From an uncultured Pseudomonadota bacterium (GTDB taxonomy: Bacteria > Pseudomonadota > Alphaproteobacteria > RF32 > CAG-239): a stretch of DNA of 64,000 nucleotides. The stretch covers positions 4,309 to 68,308 of the forward strand of contig CADAAN010000006.1 in NCBI GenBank assembly GCA_902785935.1, in the 5' to 3' direction. The notes beneath the pieces were generated by a model. That model was not told where the DNA came from. It made no database searches and saw only the letters and a list, made by a program, of their open reading frames with translations. Shown piece after piece: positions 1-9,997 of the stretch (position 1 is its first letter; the number at the start of each line of letters is the position of its first letter). The translations under genes were made by a program, and so were the position numbers.

Positions 1-288
1 AGCAAAATATAAAGATGTGATTGCAAAATACGGTAATGTTGATGTATTCGTTTTGCCTAACTTTGAATGTCATTTCACAAAGCACAAAGGGGTTGAGTGT
101 CCATATAAAGACGATGACAAGGTTTGGGTTTTTGACGGCTACTCTTATTGCAATTGGTAATCTTTATTATTGGATAAGTAAAGGGAGCTTTTTACGGCTC
201 CCTTATTTTATGTTTGTTTTCGCAATTTAATAATTGCCTTTTTATATAAATTCAATTAGACTTCGAATTGTAATTGATAGCATGAAAT

Positions 289-1476
289 ATGGTAATGAAA
301 AAAATATACTATACAGGAAAAGGTGGGGCTTTTAGGCTTTTTGTGGCAGAAAACAAAACTGACATCTGTGTTGTCGATTTTAAAAATGCATTAACAAAGA
401 CAGAACAAATTTTTATTGAAGAATATGCCTCTAAAATAGGATTAAGAAATAATTTACGACCTTTCCAAAATTTAAATGGTGTATATCAACAGGAGTGGTA
501 CAAAATCACAAAGCATTTTCTTAAACATGTTTCTCAAAATGGCGGACAAATTTCAGATATATGCGGCGATATACTAACTTTAAATGACCTCTCAAAAGCA
601 TATTTTGCTACAAAAAAAATACAAAATAAGCTTTGTTTTTATAAAATTGTACAGAAAATAAACCCAGACTATTTATTACCAAATTGGAAAATTAATAAGC
701 TAGAAAATCAAAAAAATGAATATCCACTCATTATCAAATCCTGTCAAGGAAAGGGCGGTAAAGGAAATATCGTATGCTATTCTGATTCTGATTTTGATCA
801 GTGTCATAAAATTTTAAATTCCAAGCTGTTTGCAAAAAAGCAAGAAAATGGACAATACAATACCTCAAACAAAATAATCATTGAAAAATTTTATCCCAAT
901 GCGGTCAGCTATAATTGTAGCTTTTACTGCACAAAGCAAGGAAAAATAAAATTTCAAAAGATATCACAACAAATAATTGAGGAAGTATTTTATAGAGGAA
1001 ACATTTATCCACCCCTGTTAACAAAATCACAACAGGAAGATGTTACGGAAATCAGTGAGAAAATTTGTCATATTTGCCATTCAGATTATGGATATGTTGG
1101 TTGGTTGGGTTTAGATTTTATTTTGCTTAATGATAAAATGCATATCATAGAAGCAAACCCCCGTGTCAATAGTGTTACACATGCGCATAAATTCTCCAAA
1201 GGCAATCCTTTTCTTATCAGGCTGATGCGGCATAAAGCGATGCAATTAACGGAGATTTTTGATAAATTCATTCTTAACCCTGTTACCGGATATGGAATAG
1301 TTCCTTACCAAATACCTGATAATGAAAATGTTCTTCTCCTCTCTGCAAATTCCACTTTAGAAAAAGCAGAGAATGAATTGAAAAGATTTGCTCAAGCAAA
1401 TGGACTAGAAAATGTCACTCAAGAAAATATTCTATCATTTTCTAAATCTGTTTCTTATTATTATACAAAGCTATAA
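289..1476 (+). CDS. ATP-grasp domain protein
   Basis: ORF track; motifs PLIIKSCQGKGGKGNIV, IIIEKFYPNA, GLDFILLNDKMHIIEANPRVNS resemble ATP-grasp ATP-binding/catalytic signature (xEANPR); true start may be ATG at 295. Confidence 0.5.
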   Translation: MVMKKIYYTGKGGAFRLFVAENKTDICVVDFKNALTKTEQIFIEEYASKIGLRNNLRPFQNLNGVYQQEWYKITKHFLKHVSQNGGQISDICGDILTLNDLSKAYFATKKIQNKLCFYKIVQKINPDYLLPNWKINKLENQKNEYPLIIKSCQGKGGKGNIVCYSDSDFDQCHKILNSKLFAKKQENGQYNTSNKIIIEKFYPNAVSYNCSFYCTKQGKIKFQKISQQIIEEVFYRGNIYPPLLTKSQQEDVTEISEKICHICHSDYGYVGWLGLDFILLNDKMHIIEANPRVNSVTHAHKFSKGNPFLIRLMRHKAMQLTEIFDKFILNPVTGYGIVPYQIPDNENVLLLSANSTLEKAENELKRFAQANGLENVTQENILSFSKSVSYYYTKL

Positions 1477-2155
1477 TAATTTCTGAAATACTTTGCTTAA
1501 CAATCGGATTTACATACTTTTTCTTCTGTCCGTTCATAAGAATTGTATTTTGTAACTCTTGATATAGGTTTTTGGAATTTATACCTAAAGTATTTGAAAT
1601 TTTTTCACTCCAGATATTAAGGGGCATTTCTCTGGTGAGGTGTAAATCAATATGTTCCCGTATAAAACGTGGATTTAAAAGCTTGTTTTTAATATGTTGT
1701 GTATAGAAAGTTATCCTCTTCTTACGATTTTCTTCGTCAAAATATTTTTTAAACTGCCGAGGAAGTTCTTGAACTTCTTCAGCATACTTTCCTTTGAATG
1801 ATAATAAAATATTCTTAAATTCAATTTTAGGATACGATTGAGATATTTGAGAAATCATCTCTATTTCATCAGTTCCGTTAATACAAAAAGCATATAGACT
1901 ATCTGAGATAATAAAATTTTCAACATCTTTCTTGCGAATTCCATAAGTTACTTCTTTATTGTACAAAAACAACTGATCAGGATGAAGTGATTGTTCATGA
2001 ACAATATATCTTTCCTCGTCATCTGATCGAATAGGCCGACTCGTTACTTGCGGAATAATAAAAATATTTGGATCTGACACACTTATTGCTTTTAAAAGTG
2101 TGCTCTTTCCGACACAGGACGTTCCCGTAATGGATATAAAGTACTTTTTATCCAT
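1442..2155 (-). CDS. guanylate-kinase-like P-loop kinase domain protein
   Basis: Walker A ITGTSCVGKSTL followed by TSRPIR..DEERYIV..E and TYGIRKKDV, matching guanylate kinase family layout (GxxGxGKST...TTRxPR...Y.F). Confidence 0.5.
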   Translation of the reverse strand: MDKKYFISITGTSCVGKSTLLKAISVSDPNIFIIPQVTSRPIRSDDEERYIVHEQSLHPDQLFLYNKEVTYGIRKKDVENFIISDSLYAFCINGTDEIEMISQISQSYPKIEFKNILLSFKGKYAEEVQELPRQFKKYFDEENRKKRITFYTQHIKNKLLNPRFIREHIDLHLTREMPLNIWSEKISNTLGINSKNLYQELQNTILMNGQKKKYVNPIVKQSISEIIIALYNNKKQI

Positions 2156-2576
2156 GGGCTTTTACACTAATTATCACAAAAGGAGTTGCATTGCATGACG
2201 TTAAGTCTTGTTTAAGAATCCATAATGCACCATTTGAATCTAAATCTGAAATATTTATATTCGGCTCTCCTTGTACTTGACAATCAAAAAGTATACCGGT
2301 ATGAATTAAACAGCCTGGCCTTCCATCATCTTCTGTAAAGTCCTCAAATCGTACAATTTCTTCTTTACGCGAGGTACAATCGACAAGTTTACAGCCTGTT
2401 TCTTCCATAATTTCTCGTCTTAATGTTTCAAGTTCCGTTTCTCCTTCTTCTGGAGATCCTCCCGGTAAATCATACATCCCAGTATAAGGCCCTCTTTTTT
2501 TTCTAATAAGTAATACCTTATTATTTTTTTCAATATACCCATATATTCCCTTATGTGTTCTAGTTATTTCTCTCAC
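2148..2576 (-). CDS. NUDIX hydrolase
   Basis: Nudix box GGSPEEGETELETLRREIMEETG (GX5EX7REUXEEXGU). Confidence 0.75.
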   Translation of the reverse strand: MREITRTHKGIYGYIEKNNKVLLIRKKRGPYTGMYDLPGGSPEEGETELETLRREIMEETGCKLVDCTSRKEEIVRFEDFTEDDGRPGCLIHTGILFDCQVQGEPNINISDLDSNGALWILKQDLTSCNATPFVIISVKAHG

Positions 2577-3546
2577 TATTTATCTCCTTTAAACGAAAAT
2601 TTACATTGCTGATTAGGTGATTAAGAGTCGTTATAAAAAATTTATGTAAAACAATTTCAGTAAATTTATGCATTTCATAACAATAATATTCTGTAGATAA
2701 AGCCATCTCAAATCCCTTATAACAAGCCAACACGTTTATTATATCATATTTTTTTTGGAAGTCATCTGTTTTATTTAATATTTGATAATGCTTTTTTAAT
2801 ATTTTTTTTTCTAACACTATGTCTGGTTGATCTGTATATTTTAAAAGCAGGTCAATTAAATCGTACAATTGGTAGTTATATCGAATAGAATCAAAATCCA
2901 AAAATTTATATTTATCTTTGCAAATCAAAATATTTTGAGGATTACAATCCCCATGAATGATGCCATAATTCCAACTATTTTTAACGATATAAGGCATTGT
3001 AACGGTTTCTAATAGCTTCAATTTATCATATATTATGGAATAAGATTTGTATCTGTTGTCTATAACAAGGCAGTTTTTAACATTAGACGTCCAGTAGTGC
3101 TGAATACGTTTTTGGCTATTTTGAATTTCTTTTTTTAGATTTAATATGCGTTTTCCCTGATAACCAGACATATGAAAATCTTGCATCAATTGTAAGTTTT
3201 TAATAAAATTTTCCGAAATCTGCCCTTGGGCTTTTTTATATAATATTACAGGTTTTGATGCAAACTGACTTATGGCGTCATTAAATTTGTTCAGATTCAA
3301 TTCAATACAGTAAAATTTTTTATATTGATTAAACAGCTTCAAAGATTTTTGTAAAAATTTTCTTGTTTTGGTTTCGTAAATTTTCATAATATACTGTTGA
3401 TTAATTTCCAACACAGTATTGTCCATTGCATTATTATAAATTTTTATCTCGCACGGTATAATATTATATTCTGATACCAAAAATTCAGATATATCGTTCA
3501 CTTTATAACTTGTAAAATTTCCATAATTATTACTGTTTAAAAACAT
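2560..3546 (-). CDS. aminoglycoside/choline-kinase-like phosphotransferase (APH family)
   Basis: IIHGDCNPQNILI catalytic-loop motif of APH/ChoK kinases; start moved to ATG at 3546 (MFLNSNN) to limit overlap with upstream gene. Confidence 0.5.
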   Translation of the reverse strand: MFLNSNNYGNFTSYKVNDISEFLVSEYNIIPCEIKIYNNAMDNTVLEINQQYIMKIYETKTRKFLQKSLKLFNQYKKFYCIELNLNKFNDAISQFASKPVILYKKAQGQISENFIKNLQLMQDFHMSGYQGKRILNLKKEIQNSQKRIQHYWTSNVKNCLVIDNRYKSYSIIYDKLKLLETVTMPYIVKNSWNYGIIHGDCNPQNILICKDKYKFLDFDSIRYNYQLYDLIDLLLKYTDQPDIVLEKKILKKHYQILNKTDDFQKKYDIINVLACYKGFEMALSTEYYCYEMHKFTEIVLHKFFITTLNHLISNVNFRLKEINSERNN

Positions 3547-9783: not shown

Positions 9784-9784
9784 G

Positions 9785-9810
9785 AAGGCCGCCTTTCAGG
9801 CGGTTTTTTT
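9785..9810 (+). terminator. intrinsic terminator after tRNA fragment
   Basis: ggccgcc-tttca-ggcggc hairpin + T7. Confidence 0.6.
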
Positions 9811-9927
9811 GATTCTGCCAAGCCAAAGGAGCGAAGCCCGAAAAGGGGTTTGACTACAAGCAAAATGCGAGCGTAAGCGCGCCGATCGGCCCCAGCCGAT
9901 GAGCGCAGTGAACATAGCGAAGCGAAG

Positions 9928-9948
9928 TAGCCCCCATGCGCGTACCAA
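9928..9948 (+). repeat. second copy of tRNA 3'-end (cccccaTGCGCGTACCA), direct repeat of 9767..9783 (1 mismatch)
   Basis: 17-nt direct repeat 16/17 identical, also followed by hairpin+T-run (9960..9995). Confidence 0.65.
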
Positions 9949-9997
9949 TTCTAAAAAAGCAACCCGCCGGCATAGCCTGCGGGTTGTTTTTTTTGAC

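What the first reader, a model, noticed from the sequence alone, without database searches (positions are those of the whole stretch)
1..9995. Integrase-bounded genomic island ending in duplicated tRNA 3'-end att repeats
**Integrase and att copies.** A tyrosine integrase (8395-9552) sits beside a 39-nt tRNA 3' fragment (9745-9783) with T-arm, acceptor strand and CCA, but no tRNA 5' body. A second copy, cccccaTGCGCGTACCA, lies 165 bp further on at 9928-9948 with 16 of 17 bases matching. Each copy is followed by its own terminator hairpin.

**Interpretation of the repeats.** This is the signature of attR, a partial tRNA copy, at the end of an element that targets a tRNA or tmRNA. The second copy plus a GC-rich spacer suggests serial or tandem integration events.

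**Extent.** The island extends leftward through at least position 1 and beyond the window. Its content is accessory: ATP-grasp, GK-like kinase, Nudix, APH-like kinase, glycosyltransferase, Hsp70-like ATPase, pentapeptide-HTH and an AbiEi-like protein.
Basis: partly seen in the sequence, partly recalled or inferred. Interest (0 to 1): 0.6.

Follow-up and report, generated by a model that had tools for sequence, protein, structure and literature searches.

The report
Defence island inserted at tRNA-Lys gene
An integrase-carrying island of at least 34 kb, loaded with anti-phage defence genes, sits at a lysine tRNA gene of a rumen alphaproteobacterium, which is ordinary; the supposed second att copy is instead the tail of an undescribed small structured repeat that follows tRNA genes in this bacterial group.

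Summary
The sequence features are real, but their coordinates and meaning need correcting.

**attR and integrase.** Window 9735-9780 is 46 nt (not 39) identical to the 3' part of tRNA-Lys(CTT), from the anticodon loop to CCA. It lies beside a P4-type tyrosine integrase (8395-9552, minus strand).

**Evidence of mobility.**
- The identical integrase and junction occur in four different chromosomal contexts.
- One related genome holds the intact tRNA joined to the same flank, that is, an empty site.
- A 6-kb relative carries both 46-nt repeats.

So this is attR of a tRNA-Lys integrative island.

**Extent and cargo.** The island runs at least 34.3 kb leftward to the end of the contig. Its GC is 32.8%, against 40.0% for the host. 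It carries AbiE, Shango, type I R-M and Hachiman. attL was not reached.

**The second copy.** The repeat at 9931-9947 is not a scar of serial integration of such islands. It is the 3' arm of a roughly 140-nt unit (9805-9947). This unit family follows intact tRNA-Lys genes in 29 of 72 related loci, often as tandem arrays. It also follows tRNA-Ala and tRNA-Pro genes, with arms copied from the neighbouring tRNA and a conserved, covarying core. It matches no Rfam family, and its nature (RNA gene or gene-less mobile element) is unresolved.

The parts
1..8303 (.). Right-hand 8.3 kb of the island cargo. Genes: ATP-grasp (289-1476, +), P-loop protein (1442-2155, -), Nudix (2148-2576, -), APH/TCAD9-like kinase (2560-3657, -), GT1 glycosyltransferase (3530-4768, -), Hsp70-like ATPase (4827-6206, +), pentapeptide + HTH_17 protein (6214-7152, -), AbiEii C-terminal fragment (7165-7542, -), AbiEi (7542-8303, -).
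   Evidence: Pfam and PADLOC. GC is 30-36% against about 40% for the host. The same block lies on four independent contigs.
8395..9552 (-). Tyrosine integrase, P4-like architecture (arm-binding domain, SAM-like middle domain, catalytic domain).
   Evidence: Pfam PF13356, PF22022 and PF00589. The identical 385-aa protein is on 9 contigs with 4 different right flanks.
9553..9734 (.). AT-rich P arm of attR. It contains a tandem 11-nt repeat, CCGGTGCCGCA / CTGGTGCCGCA, at 9582-9603, a candidate arm-type integrase-binding site.
   Evidence: The arm is conserved with the integrase in all contexts up to the core. The same GGTGCC repeat follows tRNA-Lys plus terminator in L060, which looks like attL of a related island. 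That these repeats are binding sites is an inference.
9735..9780 (+). attR core: 46 nt identical to positions 31-76 of tRNA-Lys(CTT), from the anticodon loop to CCA.
   Evidence: Homology between L004 and the empty site L032 starts exactly here.
9783..9811 (+). Rho-independent terminator hairpin, the native terminator of the host tRNA-Lys gene.
   Evidence: Fold of -15 kcal/mol, z = -3.8. Homologous GCCGCC...GGCGG hairpins directly follow intact tRNA-Lys in L037, L076 and L085.
9805..9947 (+). One copy of the tRNA-linked unit. It comprises a degenerate 5' arm, the hairpin GAAGCCCGAAAAGGGGTTTGAC, a conserved core of about 85 nt, and a 3' arm.
   Evidence: Covariance-model hit of 99.1 bits, E = 3.5e-23. 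It is 82.6% identical over 230 nt to the unit after the intact tRNA-Lys in L085.
9931..9947 (+). The 'second copy': the 3' arm of the unit (T-stem 3' strand, acceptor 3' strand, ACCA), matching the attR core at 16 of 17 bases.
9950..9995 (.). Bidirectional terminator shared with the convergent host gene.
   Evidence: Fold of -26.9 kcal/mol, z = -6.0.
9998..12169 (-). First host gene to the right: acyltransferase / AMP-binding (Aas-like).
   Evidence: Pfam families on record. The same junction appears in two independent assemblies (L001 and L002).

Best explanation
**What it is.** Window 1-9780 is the right-hand end of an integrative genomic island, at least 34.3 kb long, in a rumen alphaproteobacterium. 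The island inserted into a tRNA-Lys(CTT) gene.

**How it works.**
- The island's P4-type tyrosine integrase recombines an element-borne copy of the tRNA's 3' part (attP) with the gene (attB).
- The crossover lies between the anticodon loop and the start of the T-arm.
- The element's copy restores the tRNA at the far (left) end.
- The original 46-nt 3' part, with its native terminator and native downstream sequence, is pushed to the integrase end as attR (9735-9780).
- The HTH_17-domain protein may act as the excision or regulatory factor. This is inferred.

**Cargo.** It is mostly anti-phage defence: AbiE remnants, Shango, a type I R-M system with a PIN protein, and Hachiman. There is also an uncharacterised block of ATP-grasp, kinase, Nudix, glycosyltransferase and Hsp70-like genes.

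**The second copy.** It is not part of this island's att system. It is the 3' arm of a roughly 140-nt tRNA-linked unit that already lay downstream of the host tRNA-Lys and was displaced together with attR.
For: **Identity of the target.**
- The fragment matches the 3' part of tRNA-Lys(CTT).
- A scan of genome representatives found 72 loci, and 68 of them have an intact tRNA-Lys(CTT) ending in this sequence. Almost all are gut or rumen Alphaproteobacteria MAGs.

**Mobility.**
- The identical integrase, P arm and core is joined to four different right flanks.
- L004 aligns to L032 at 94% over 1.7 kb, starting exactly at the core. L032 has the intact tRNA there, so it is an empty site.
- L052 is a complete 6-kb relative: tRNA-Lys, an integrase 31% identical, then a 46-nt direct repeat followed by a unit.

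**Crossover position.** The L008 junction keeps the common ACTCTTAATCAGTGGGTCC, then carries the T-arm variant of its own host.

**Foreign origin.**
- GC is 32.8% over 34,279 bp, against 40.0% for the host.
- The SngC-like helicase has its best homologues (82%) in Gastranaerophilales / Clostridium CAG:967.

**Cargo.** PADLOC finds AbiEi/AbiEii, SngA/B/C and HamA/B; Pfam finds HsdM/S/R.

**Assembly.** The junction is reproduced in two independent assemblies.

**Unit membership.**
- The window unit scores 99 bits against the covariance model.
- Units follow attR in the window, L052 and L008, and follow intact tRNAs elsewhere.
Against: - attL was not found. There is no tRNA-Lys in the 34.3 kb up to the contig end, nor in the 1.6 kb added by L110.
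- The left part of the island (HNH_3 and neighbours) resembles elements whose conserved backbone ends at tRNA-Gln(TTG) in other contigs. The island may therefore be composite or rearranged.
- No empty site was found for this exact locus. It was found only for sister insertions.
- No circular attP junction or excision product was seen.
- The arm-site and excisionase roles are inferred.
Confidence: 0.85

Rival explanations
1. The second copy marks an earlier integration. In this view the 165-bp interval is itself a gene-less miniature integrative or mobile element. It inserted at the 3' end of the tRNA, duplicated the T-loop-to-CCA segment, and can accrete in tandem.
For: - Units are bounded by direct repeats of the tRNA 3' end and form arrays of 1 to 4, sometimes of diverged units with different terminators (L016, L022, L063).
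- They are present or absent among syntenic loci.
- They occur at three tRNA species, with arms matching each one.
- Every credible hit in about 726 kb searched lies just downstream of a tRNA 3' end (Lys, Ala and Pro contexts shown).
- A second, unrelated family of about 250 nt has the same layout.
- The 5' region is an inverted copy of the tRNA 3' end. A folded single strand would therefore mimic the target duplex, as in CTX-phi attP or integron attC (my knowledge).
- A further small insertion sits in the T-loop-like motif of a unit in L055.
Against: - No recombinase is associated with the units.
- In many arrays the terminator after each unit equals the host's own tRNA terminator. This fits local duplication or gene conversion better than import.
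- The repeat (17-19 nt) differs from the 46-nt block that this island's integrase duplicates.
- The core shows covarying hairpins that a mere scar would not keep.
Confidence: 0.3
2. The unit is a structured non-coding RNA gene linked to tRNA genes. Its ends pair to form a stem that mimics the acceptor/T stem of the neighbouring tRNA and ends in ACCA. This could let tRNA-processing enzymes (RNase P, 3' trimming) define its ends. The function of the conserved core is unknown.
For: - The proposed helices are 84% paired, against at most 45% when the partners are slid. The covariation score is 0.188, against at most 0.072.
- Hairpin P3 switches between G-C and A-U in 11 of 26 sequences and also shows C-G/G-C swaps.
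- The core is GC-rich in an AT-rich genome.
- Units always lie on the tRNA strand.
- The long family also folds into several covarying helices, including one that pairs an internal segment with the tRNA-like 3' arm.
- G-U pairs (27) outnumber A-C pairs (18).
Against: - No promoter-like site lies between the terminator and the unit. A strong terminator precedes each unit.
- The G-U excess is weak, and P3 has no G-U pairs at all.
- The window's own copy folds no better than shuffled sequence (z = -0.3), and its 5' arm is degenerate.
- There is no Rfam match.
Confidence: 0.3
3. The tRNA fragments belong to a permuted (two-piece) alphaproteobacterial tmRNA gene or a tmRNA-like RNA. On this reading the element targets ssrA, an option the first reader left open.
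For: - The host is an alphaproteobacterium.
- The order T-arm / ACCA / hairpin / 5' strand / GGGTTCGAC recalls permuted ssrA.
- There is a weak Rfam tmRNA_permuted hit of 12.2 bits.
Against: - ARAGORN finds no tmRNA in the window or in the 72 tRNA-Lys loci plus 25 further loci scanned.
- The hit is far below the gathering score of 47 (E = 3.3).
- The acceptor stem is that of tRNA-Lys and has no G3:U70 pair.
- No conserved tag reading frame exists.
- The arms change to tRNA-Ala or tRNA-Pro sequence next to those genes.
Confidence: 0.02
4. The region is not a mobile island. It would be an old, fixed accessory region next to a decayed tRNA pseudogene, or a chimeric metagenome assembly.
For: - attL is not seen.
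- The AbiEii gene is truncated.
- The sequence is a metagenome scaffold.
Against: - The identical integrase protein is found in four flank contexts across several samples.
- An empty site exists.
- The junction is identical in two assemblies.
- The 46-nt core is undecayed.
Confidence: 0.05

Closest known systems
tRNA-gene genomic islands with P4-type tyrosine integrases (Islander-type islands; for example P4, CP4-57, the Mesorhizobium symbiosis island)
   Same: - An integrase with an arm-binding domain sits at one end.
- A displaced 3' tRNA fragment acts as a direct repeat.
- The element restores the tRNA.
- GC is lower than the host's, and the cargo is accessory.
- The principle is as stated in the Islander abstract (PMC4383910).
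   Different: - The host is an uncultured gut or rumen alphaproteobacterial clade.
- The target is tRNA-Lys(CTT), with a 46-nt block starting at the anticodon loop.
- attL is not recovered.
- The integrase lies at the end distal to the intact tRNA.
Defence islands / integrative elements as hotspots of anti-phage systems
   Same: Several systems lie side by side: AbiE, Shango, type I R-M with a PIN protein, and Hachiman. Related backbones carry different defence cargo.
   Different: - No phage-satellite or conjugation genes were seen in the 36 kb known.
- The ATP-grasp / kinase / Nudix / GT1 / Hsp70-like block matches only candidate PADLOC families.
Tandem accretion of integrative elements at one att site (CIMEs of Streptococcus ICESt1/3; ssrA islands of Dehalococcoides, PMC3146451; tycheposon remnants) - from my knowledge and the titles and abstracts
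   Same: - Several partial tRNA copies lie in series downstream of the gene.
- L003 shows a genuine case: a second, decayed 46-nt fragment with 2 kb of epimerase and GT2 genes between.
   Different: In the window the interval is a 140-nt conserved structured unit, not a decayed island. Its repeat starts at the T-loop, not at the island's crossover.
Folded single-strand recombination sites (CTX-phi attP(+), integron attC) - from my knowledge
   Same: The unit's 5' region is an inverted copy of the tRNA 3' end. A single strand could therefore fold into a duplex that mimics the target.
   Different: No XerCD or IntI link is known here. The target would be a tRNA 3' end, and there is no evidence of a single-stranded intermediate.
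tRNA-like RNAs (the tRNA-like domain of tmRNA, YrlA, mascRNA)
   Same: An acceptor-like stem ends in ACCA and is joined to a non-tRNA domain.
   Different: - The arms copy whichever tRNA lies upstream.
- There is no complete T-arm.
- The units are tandemly repeated.
- No Rfam family matches.

Membership tests
tRNA-integrated genomic island (tyrosine integrase type) | Tyrosine integrase gene near one end | tested here: met
   PF00589 (E = 7e-29) plus PF13356 and PF22022 at 8395-9552.
tRNA-integrated genomic island (tyrosine integrase type) | Displaced fragment identical to the 3' part of a tRNA gene at the island end | tested here: met
   46 of 46 nt match tRNA-Lys(CTT) of L032, L037, L038 and L085.
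tRNA-integrated genomic island (tyrosine integrase type) | Intact target tRNA in direct orientation at the other end (attL) | tested here: inconclusive
   There is no tRNA in the 34.3 kb up to the contig end, nor in the 1.6 kb from L110. Both att sites are seen only in the 6-kb relative L052.
tRNA-integrated genomic island (tyrosine integrase type) | Absent from related genomes, with tRNA and flank contiguous (empty site) | tested here: met
   Met for the sister insertion: L004 against L032, 94% over 1.7 kb starting at the core. No empty site was found for the window's own flank.
Defence island | Several recognised anti-phage systems clustered together | tested here: met
   AbiEi 8.9e-78; SngA/B/C 2.9e-40 / 3e-151 / 1.7e-209; HamA/B 1.6e-104 / 4.6e-270; HsdM/S/R by Pfam.
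Serial / tandem integration of islands of this integrase | The second fragment repeats the same identity block from the same crossover point | tested here: not met
   The second copy shares only 17-21 nt from the T-loop side. The island block is 46 nt starting at the anticodon loop.
Serial / tandem integration of islands of this integrase | The interval is a remnant of an element related to the island (P/P' arms) | tested here: not met
   The interval is a unit-family member (99 bits). The family is found after intact tRNAs in loci with no integrase hit in the DNA fetched.
tmRNA (standard or permuted) | Detected by ARAGORN or an Rfam model; alanine acceptor identity; tag ORF | tested here: not met
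   Searches find none. tmRNA_permuted scores 12.2 bits against a gathering score of 47.
Any Rfam 15 family (for the unit) | Match at or near the gathering score | tested here: not met
Structured RNA (generic) | Compensatory base changes that preserve helices | tested here: inconclusive
   P3 and the overall counts exceed the controls. However, the sequences are related, strand bias is weak, and no promoter was found.

The most novel reading that the evidence does not exclude
The 'spacer plus second copy' (9805-9947) belongs to an undescribed class of tRNA-3'-end-linked, gene-less cassettes in gut and rumen Alphaproteobacteria.

**Layout.** Each cassette has a conserved structured core, either a family of about 85 nt or an unrelated family of about 170 nt. 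The core is flanked by arms copied, in inverted and direct orientation, from the T-arm and acceptor strand of whichever tRNA lies upstream (Lys, Ala or Pro). Cassettes are arrayed in tandem after the tRNA's terminator.

**Two readings.** They could be mobile non-coding RNA cassettes whose folded single strand mimics the tRNA-gene target. Or they could be tRNA-acceptor-mimic RNAs matured by the tRNA-processing machinery.
Probability: 0.4. Interest if true: 0.65.

Novelty: new member of a known kind. Interest (0 to 1): 0.42.

Why it matters
**The island.** It is a textbook case. It adds a tRNA-Lys(CTT)-specific integrase and a multi-system defence island from a poorly known, uncultured gut and rumen alphaproteobacterial clade. 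The attB/attP core is mapped to the nucleotide, which is useful for island-calling and for catalogues of integrases.

**A caution for island-finders.** A short second copy of a tRNA 3' end near an att site need not mean a second integration.

**The small units.** They are the part worth following up. Two unrelated families of structured, gene-less cassettes copy the end of the neighbouring tRNA. They would be either a new kind of tRNA-mimic RNA or a new way for very small elements to target tRNA genes.

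Tried and rejected
**Scans that found nothing useful.**
- tmRNA or a known RNA at 9400-10100, across the whole window, and in unit arrays: none.
- The att core and a unit motif in IMG/VR viral contigs: no match.
- The unit motif in JGI metagenomes: 7 hits, all chance matches inside GC-rich coding sequence with no tRNA nearby.

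**Walking left to find attL.**
- The helicase representative P0001 led only to a 6-kb contig.
- A search with the N-terminal fragment of HsdM returned only short fragments and unrelated Mob_Pre islands.
- Exact cluster look-ups then let me reach the contig end, and 1.6 kb more through L110. Still no tRNA-Lys.

**Other tests.**
- A tRNA-Gln 3' fragment, as a possible internal boundary: absent from the window, and among the loci found only in the intact tRNA-Gln genes of L114-L118, never as a separate fragment.
- A tag-peptide reading frame in units: not conserved (inspection).
- A hammerhead-like CUGAUGAG: present in only a few units, with no Rfam support.
- Promoter scans between terminator and unit: nothing.
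- Literature searches for tRNA-linked tandem structured repeats: nothing comparable.

Full report
**1. Observation.**

The ORF at 8395-9552 (minus strand) is a tyrosine integrase with the P4-like three-domain layout: Arm-DNA-bind_3, Phage_int_M and Phage_integrase. About 180 bp to its right, the plus strand reads ACTCTTAATCAGTGGGTCCGGGGTTCGAGCCCCCGTGCGCGTACCA at 9735-9780.
- A second sequence, CCCCCATGCGCGTACCA, lies at 9931-9947. It matches 16 of 17 bases, or 20 of 21 when extended.
- Two matches were found where 0.01 is expected by chance.
- Both are followed by strong hairpin-plus-T-run terminators (z = -3.8 and -6.0).
- ARAGORN and Rfam find no tRNA or tmRNA here. The only tRNAs in the window are Trp (42982-43057, minus) and Leu (50127-50211, plus).

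**2. Which gene the fragment comes from.**

An exact-pattern scan of one genome per species returned 72 loci.
- Nearly all are gut or rumen Alphaproteobacteria MAGs.
- In 68 of them the match is the 3' end of an intact tRNA-Lys(CTT).
- The closest variants (L023, L031, L032, L037, L038, L076, L085) are identical to the window over 46 nt. This block runs from the last base of the anticodon stem, through the anticodon loop, to the CCA.

The target is therefore tRNA-Lys(CTT), not tmRNA.

**3. Is it an integrative island?**

The evidence is as follows.
- The identical 385-aa integrase is on nine contigs.
- The sequence from the integrase to the end of the core is conserved. To the right of ACCAATA it diverges into four different contexts. 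These are acyltransferase (window, L001, L002), GT2/epimerase (L003, L006, L007), EamA (L004), and a unit (L008).
- L004 aligns to L032 at 94% over 1.7 kb, beginning exactly at the first base of the core. L032 has the intact tRNA there, so it is an empty site.
- In L008 the left part of the core is the common sequence, but the T-arm and acceptor are the variant of its own host. This places the crossover between the anticodon loop and the T-arm.
- L052 is a complete small relative. It runs tRNA-Lys, about 6 kb, an integrase 31% identical, then the 46-nt repeat.
- The island/host junction is identical in two independent assemblies.

This fits the standard model, in which the island restores the gene and the displaced fragment marks the end (PMC4383910, abstract).

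**4. Extent and content.**

The window is part of rumen scaffold_539, with window position 1 at record position 24546.
- I walked left through exact-protein look-ups and reached record position 1.
- The island is therefore at least 34,279 bp, at GC 32.8% against 40.0% for the host.
- An overlapping contig (99.98% identical) adds about 1.6 kb.

From right to left the island carries:
- the integrase;
- AbiEi and a C-terminal AbiEii fragment;
- a pentapeptide-HTH_17 protein;
- Hsp70-like, GT1, APH/TCAD9-like kinase, Nudix, P-loop and ATP-grasp genes;
- ankyrin-repeat proteins;
- Shango (SngA/B/C) with a DnaJ protein;
- a type I R-M system (hsdM, hsdS, hsdR) with a PIN_12 protein;
- Hachiman (HamA/B);
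- a DEDDh exonuclease, a DnaB_C/AAA protein and an HNH protein.

The Shango helicase has its nearest relatives (82%) in Gastranaerophilales / Clostridium CAG:967, which points to horizontal origin.

No intact tRNA-Lys was found, so attL is unresolved. The identical HNH protein occurs in many elements with a conserved backbone (HNH, RtcB, resolvase, KH protein). In L114-L116 and L118 that backbone ends at a tRNA-Gln(TTG) gene. No tRNA-Gln fragment lies inside our island. The left end may therefore be mosaic.

**5. The second copy.**

BLAST of the window against the tRNA-Lys loci showed that 9735-9960 aligns as one block downstream of intact tRNA-Lys genes in many species. This block runs from the core, through the GC-rich spacer, to the second copy. 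For example, it is 82.6% identical to L085.
- After the tRNA's terminator these genomes carry one to four tandem units of 160-185 nt, each ending in the tRNA's last 17-19 nt.
- A covariance model built from 26 units finds 53 hits in 726 kb. One is in the window (9805-9947, 99 bits), and credible hits lie in 29 of the 72 loci. All are on the tRNA strand, just after a tRNA 3' end.
- The unit also follows attR in L052 and L008.

The unit is thus part of the native downstream region that the island displaced. It is not a product of this island's integrase.

**6. Anatomy of the unit.**

Two hits lie after other tRNAs: tRNA-Ala(GGC) in L016 and tRNA-Pro(CGG) in L052.
- There the central domain of about 85 nt is conserved.
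- The 3' arm, the GGGTTCGAC-type motif and the 5' region are replaced by the T-arm and acceptor sequence of that tRNA.
- Across four tRNA classes the arms track the upstream tRNA.
- The 5' region is an inverted copy of the tRNA's last 28 nt or so. It is followed by a direct copy that the central domain interrupts at the T-loop position.

The proposed helices hold up against controls.
- They are 84% paired, against at most 45% when partners are slid.
- Hairpin P3 shows G-C/A-U and C-G/G-C exchanges.

Other observations limit the inference.
- The G-U excess over A-C is small (27 against 18), and P3 has no G-U pairs.
- No promoter-like site precedes units.
- The window's copy has a degenerate 5' arm and folds no better than shuffles.

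A second, unrelated family of about 250 nt has the same layout and several covarying helices. Neither family matches Rfam. Neither the att core nor the short-unit motif was found in viral contigs, and the motif gave only chance hits in JGI metagenomes.

Syntenic loci differ in unit number, including zero. Some arrays hold diverged units with different terminators, which looks like insertion. Others hold identical units sharing the host terminator, which looks like duplication.

**7. Interpretation of the unit.**

I cannot decide between two readings: a tRNA-linked structured RNA, and a gene-less mobile cassette. A cassette could perhaps use a folded strand that mimics the tRNA-gene duplex, as CTX-phi attP and integron attC do (my knowledge). 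Both readings may hold at once. Concerted evolution with the adjacent tRNA would explain the matching arms, but this is an inference. A genuine serial case exists in L003, where a second, decayed 46-nt fragment lies 2 kb beyond attR and encloses epimerase and GT2 genes.

**8. Verdict.**

The island is a new member of a well-known kind and is of low surprise. The unit family is the unexpected element and is only partly characterised.

Noticed in passing
L016 3685-3830 (minus), after tRNA-Ala(GGC) at 3861-3936; L052 6784-6919 (minus), after tRNA-Pro(CGG) at 6945-7021: Units of the same family follow tRNA-Ala and tRNA-Pro genes. Their arms are replaced by the T-arm and acceptor sequence of that tRNA, while the core is conserved.
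   Followed up: partly
L018, L026, L033, L039, L070, L072, L081, L084, L086 (downstream of tRNA-Lys): A second, unrelated family of units of about 250 nt has the same layout: terminator, T-arm-like hairpin, structured core, then a copy of the tRNA 3' end. It shows several covarying helices and has no Rfam match.
   Followed up: partly
L003 4005-4090 (reverse-complement coordinates 4253-4338): A second, decayed 46-nt-type tRNA-Lys fragment with its terminator lies 2 kb beyond attR. It encloses epimerase and GT2 genes, so an older island remnant sits in tandem.
   Followed up: partly
L114-L116 at about 18250-18580; the end of L118: The HNH_3 protein, identical to the one in this island, sits in many elements with a conserved backbone (HNH, RtcB, resolvase, KH protein). 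That backbone ends at a tRNA-Gln(TTG) gene and has variable defence cargo upstream.
   Followed up: partly
window 7165-7542: This 125-aa ORF matches only the C-terminal 115 residues of AbiEii (PADLOC, 5e-29). The AbiE toxin therefore appears truncated next to an intact AbiEi.
   Followed up: no
window 289-6206: A block of ATP-grasp, P-loop, Nudix, APH/TCAD9-like kinase, GT1 and Hsp70-like genes has only candidate PADLOC hits (PDC-S07, PDC-M61B). It may be an uncharacterised conflict or modification system.
   Followed up: no
L016 about 5870-5930: After the two units and an island-type terminator there is a 3' fragment of a tRNA-Arg(ACG)-like gene. This is another att remnant at the same locus.
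   Followed up: no
L055 (reverse complement) about 7170-7475: One unit carries an extra insertion of about 130 nt exactly at its GGG|TTCGAC T-loop-like motif.
   Followed up: no
L027 and L058 array ends; L052 and L064 attL: The motif AAAATACTACAAAAATACTACAAA (the arm repeats of the L052-type element) directly follows the truncated last unit of the L027 and L058 arrays. This suggests an integrated element distal to the array.
   Followed up: no
L066 2956-3093: The second unit of this array ends in AATTCCGCTGGGCTCACCA, an acceptor end that is not tRNA-Lys. This hints at exchange of units between tRNA loci.
   Followed up: no
window about 10000-21000 (L013, L014): Two paralogous Aas-like acyltransferase/AMP-binding genes, LRR_5 proteins, GapR and an Mla operon flank the island. 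One paralogue is 651 aa in one assembly and 724 aa in another.
   Followed up: no
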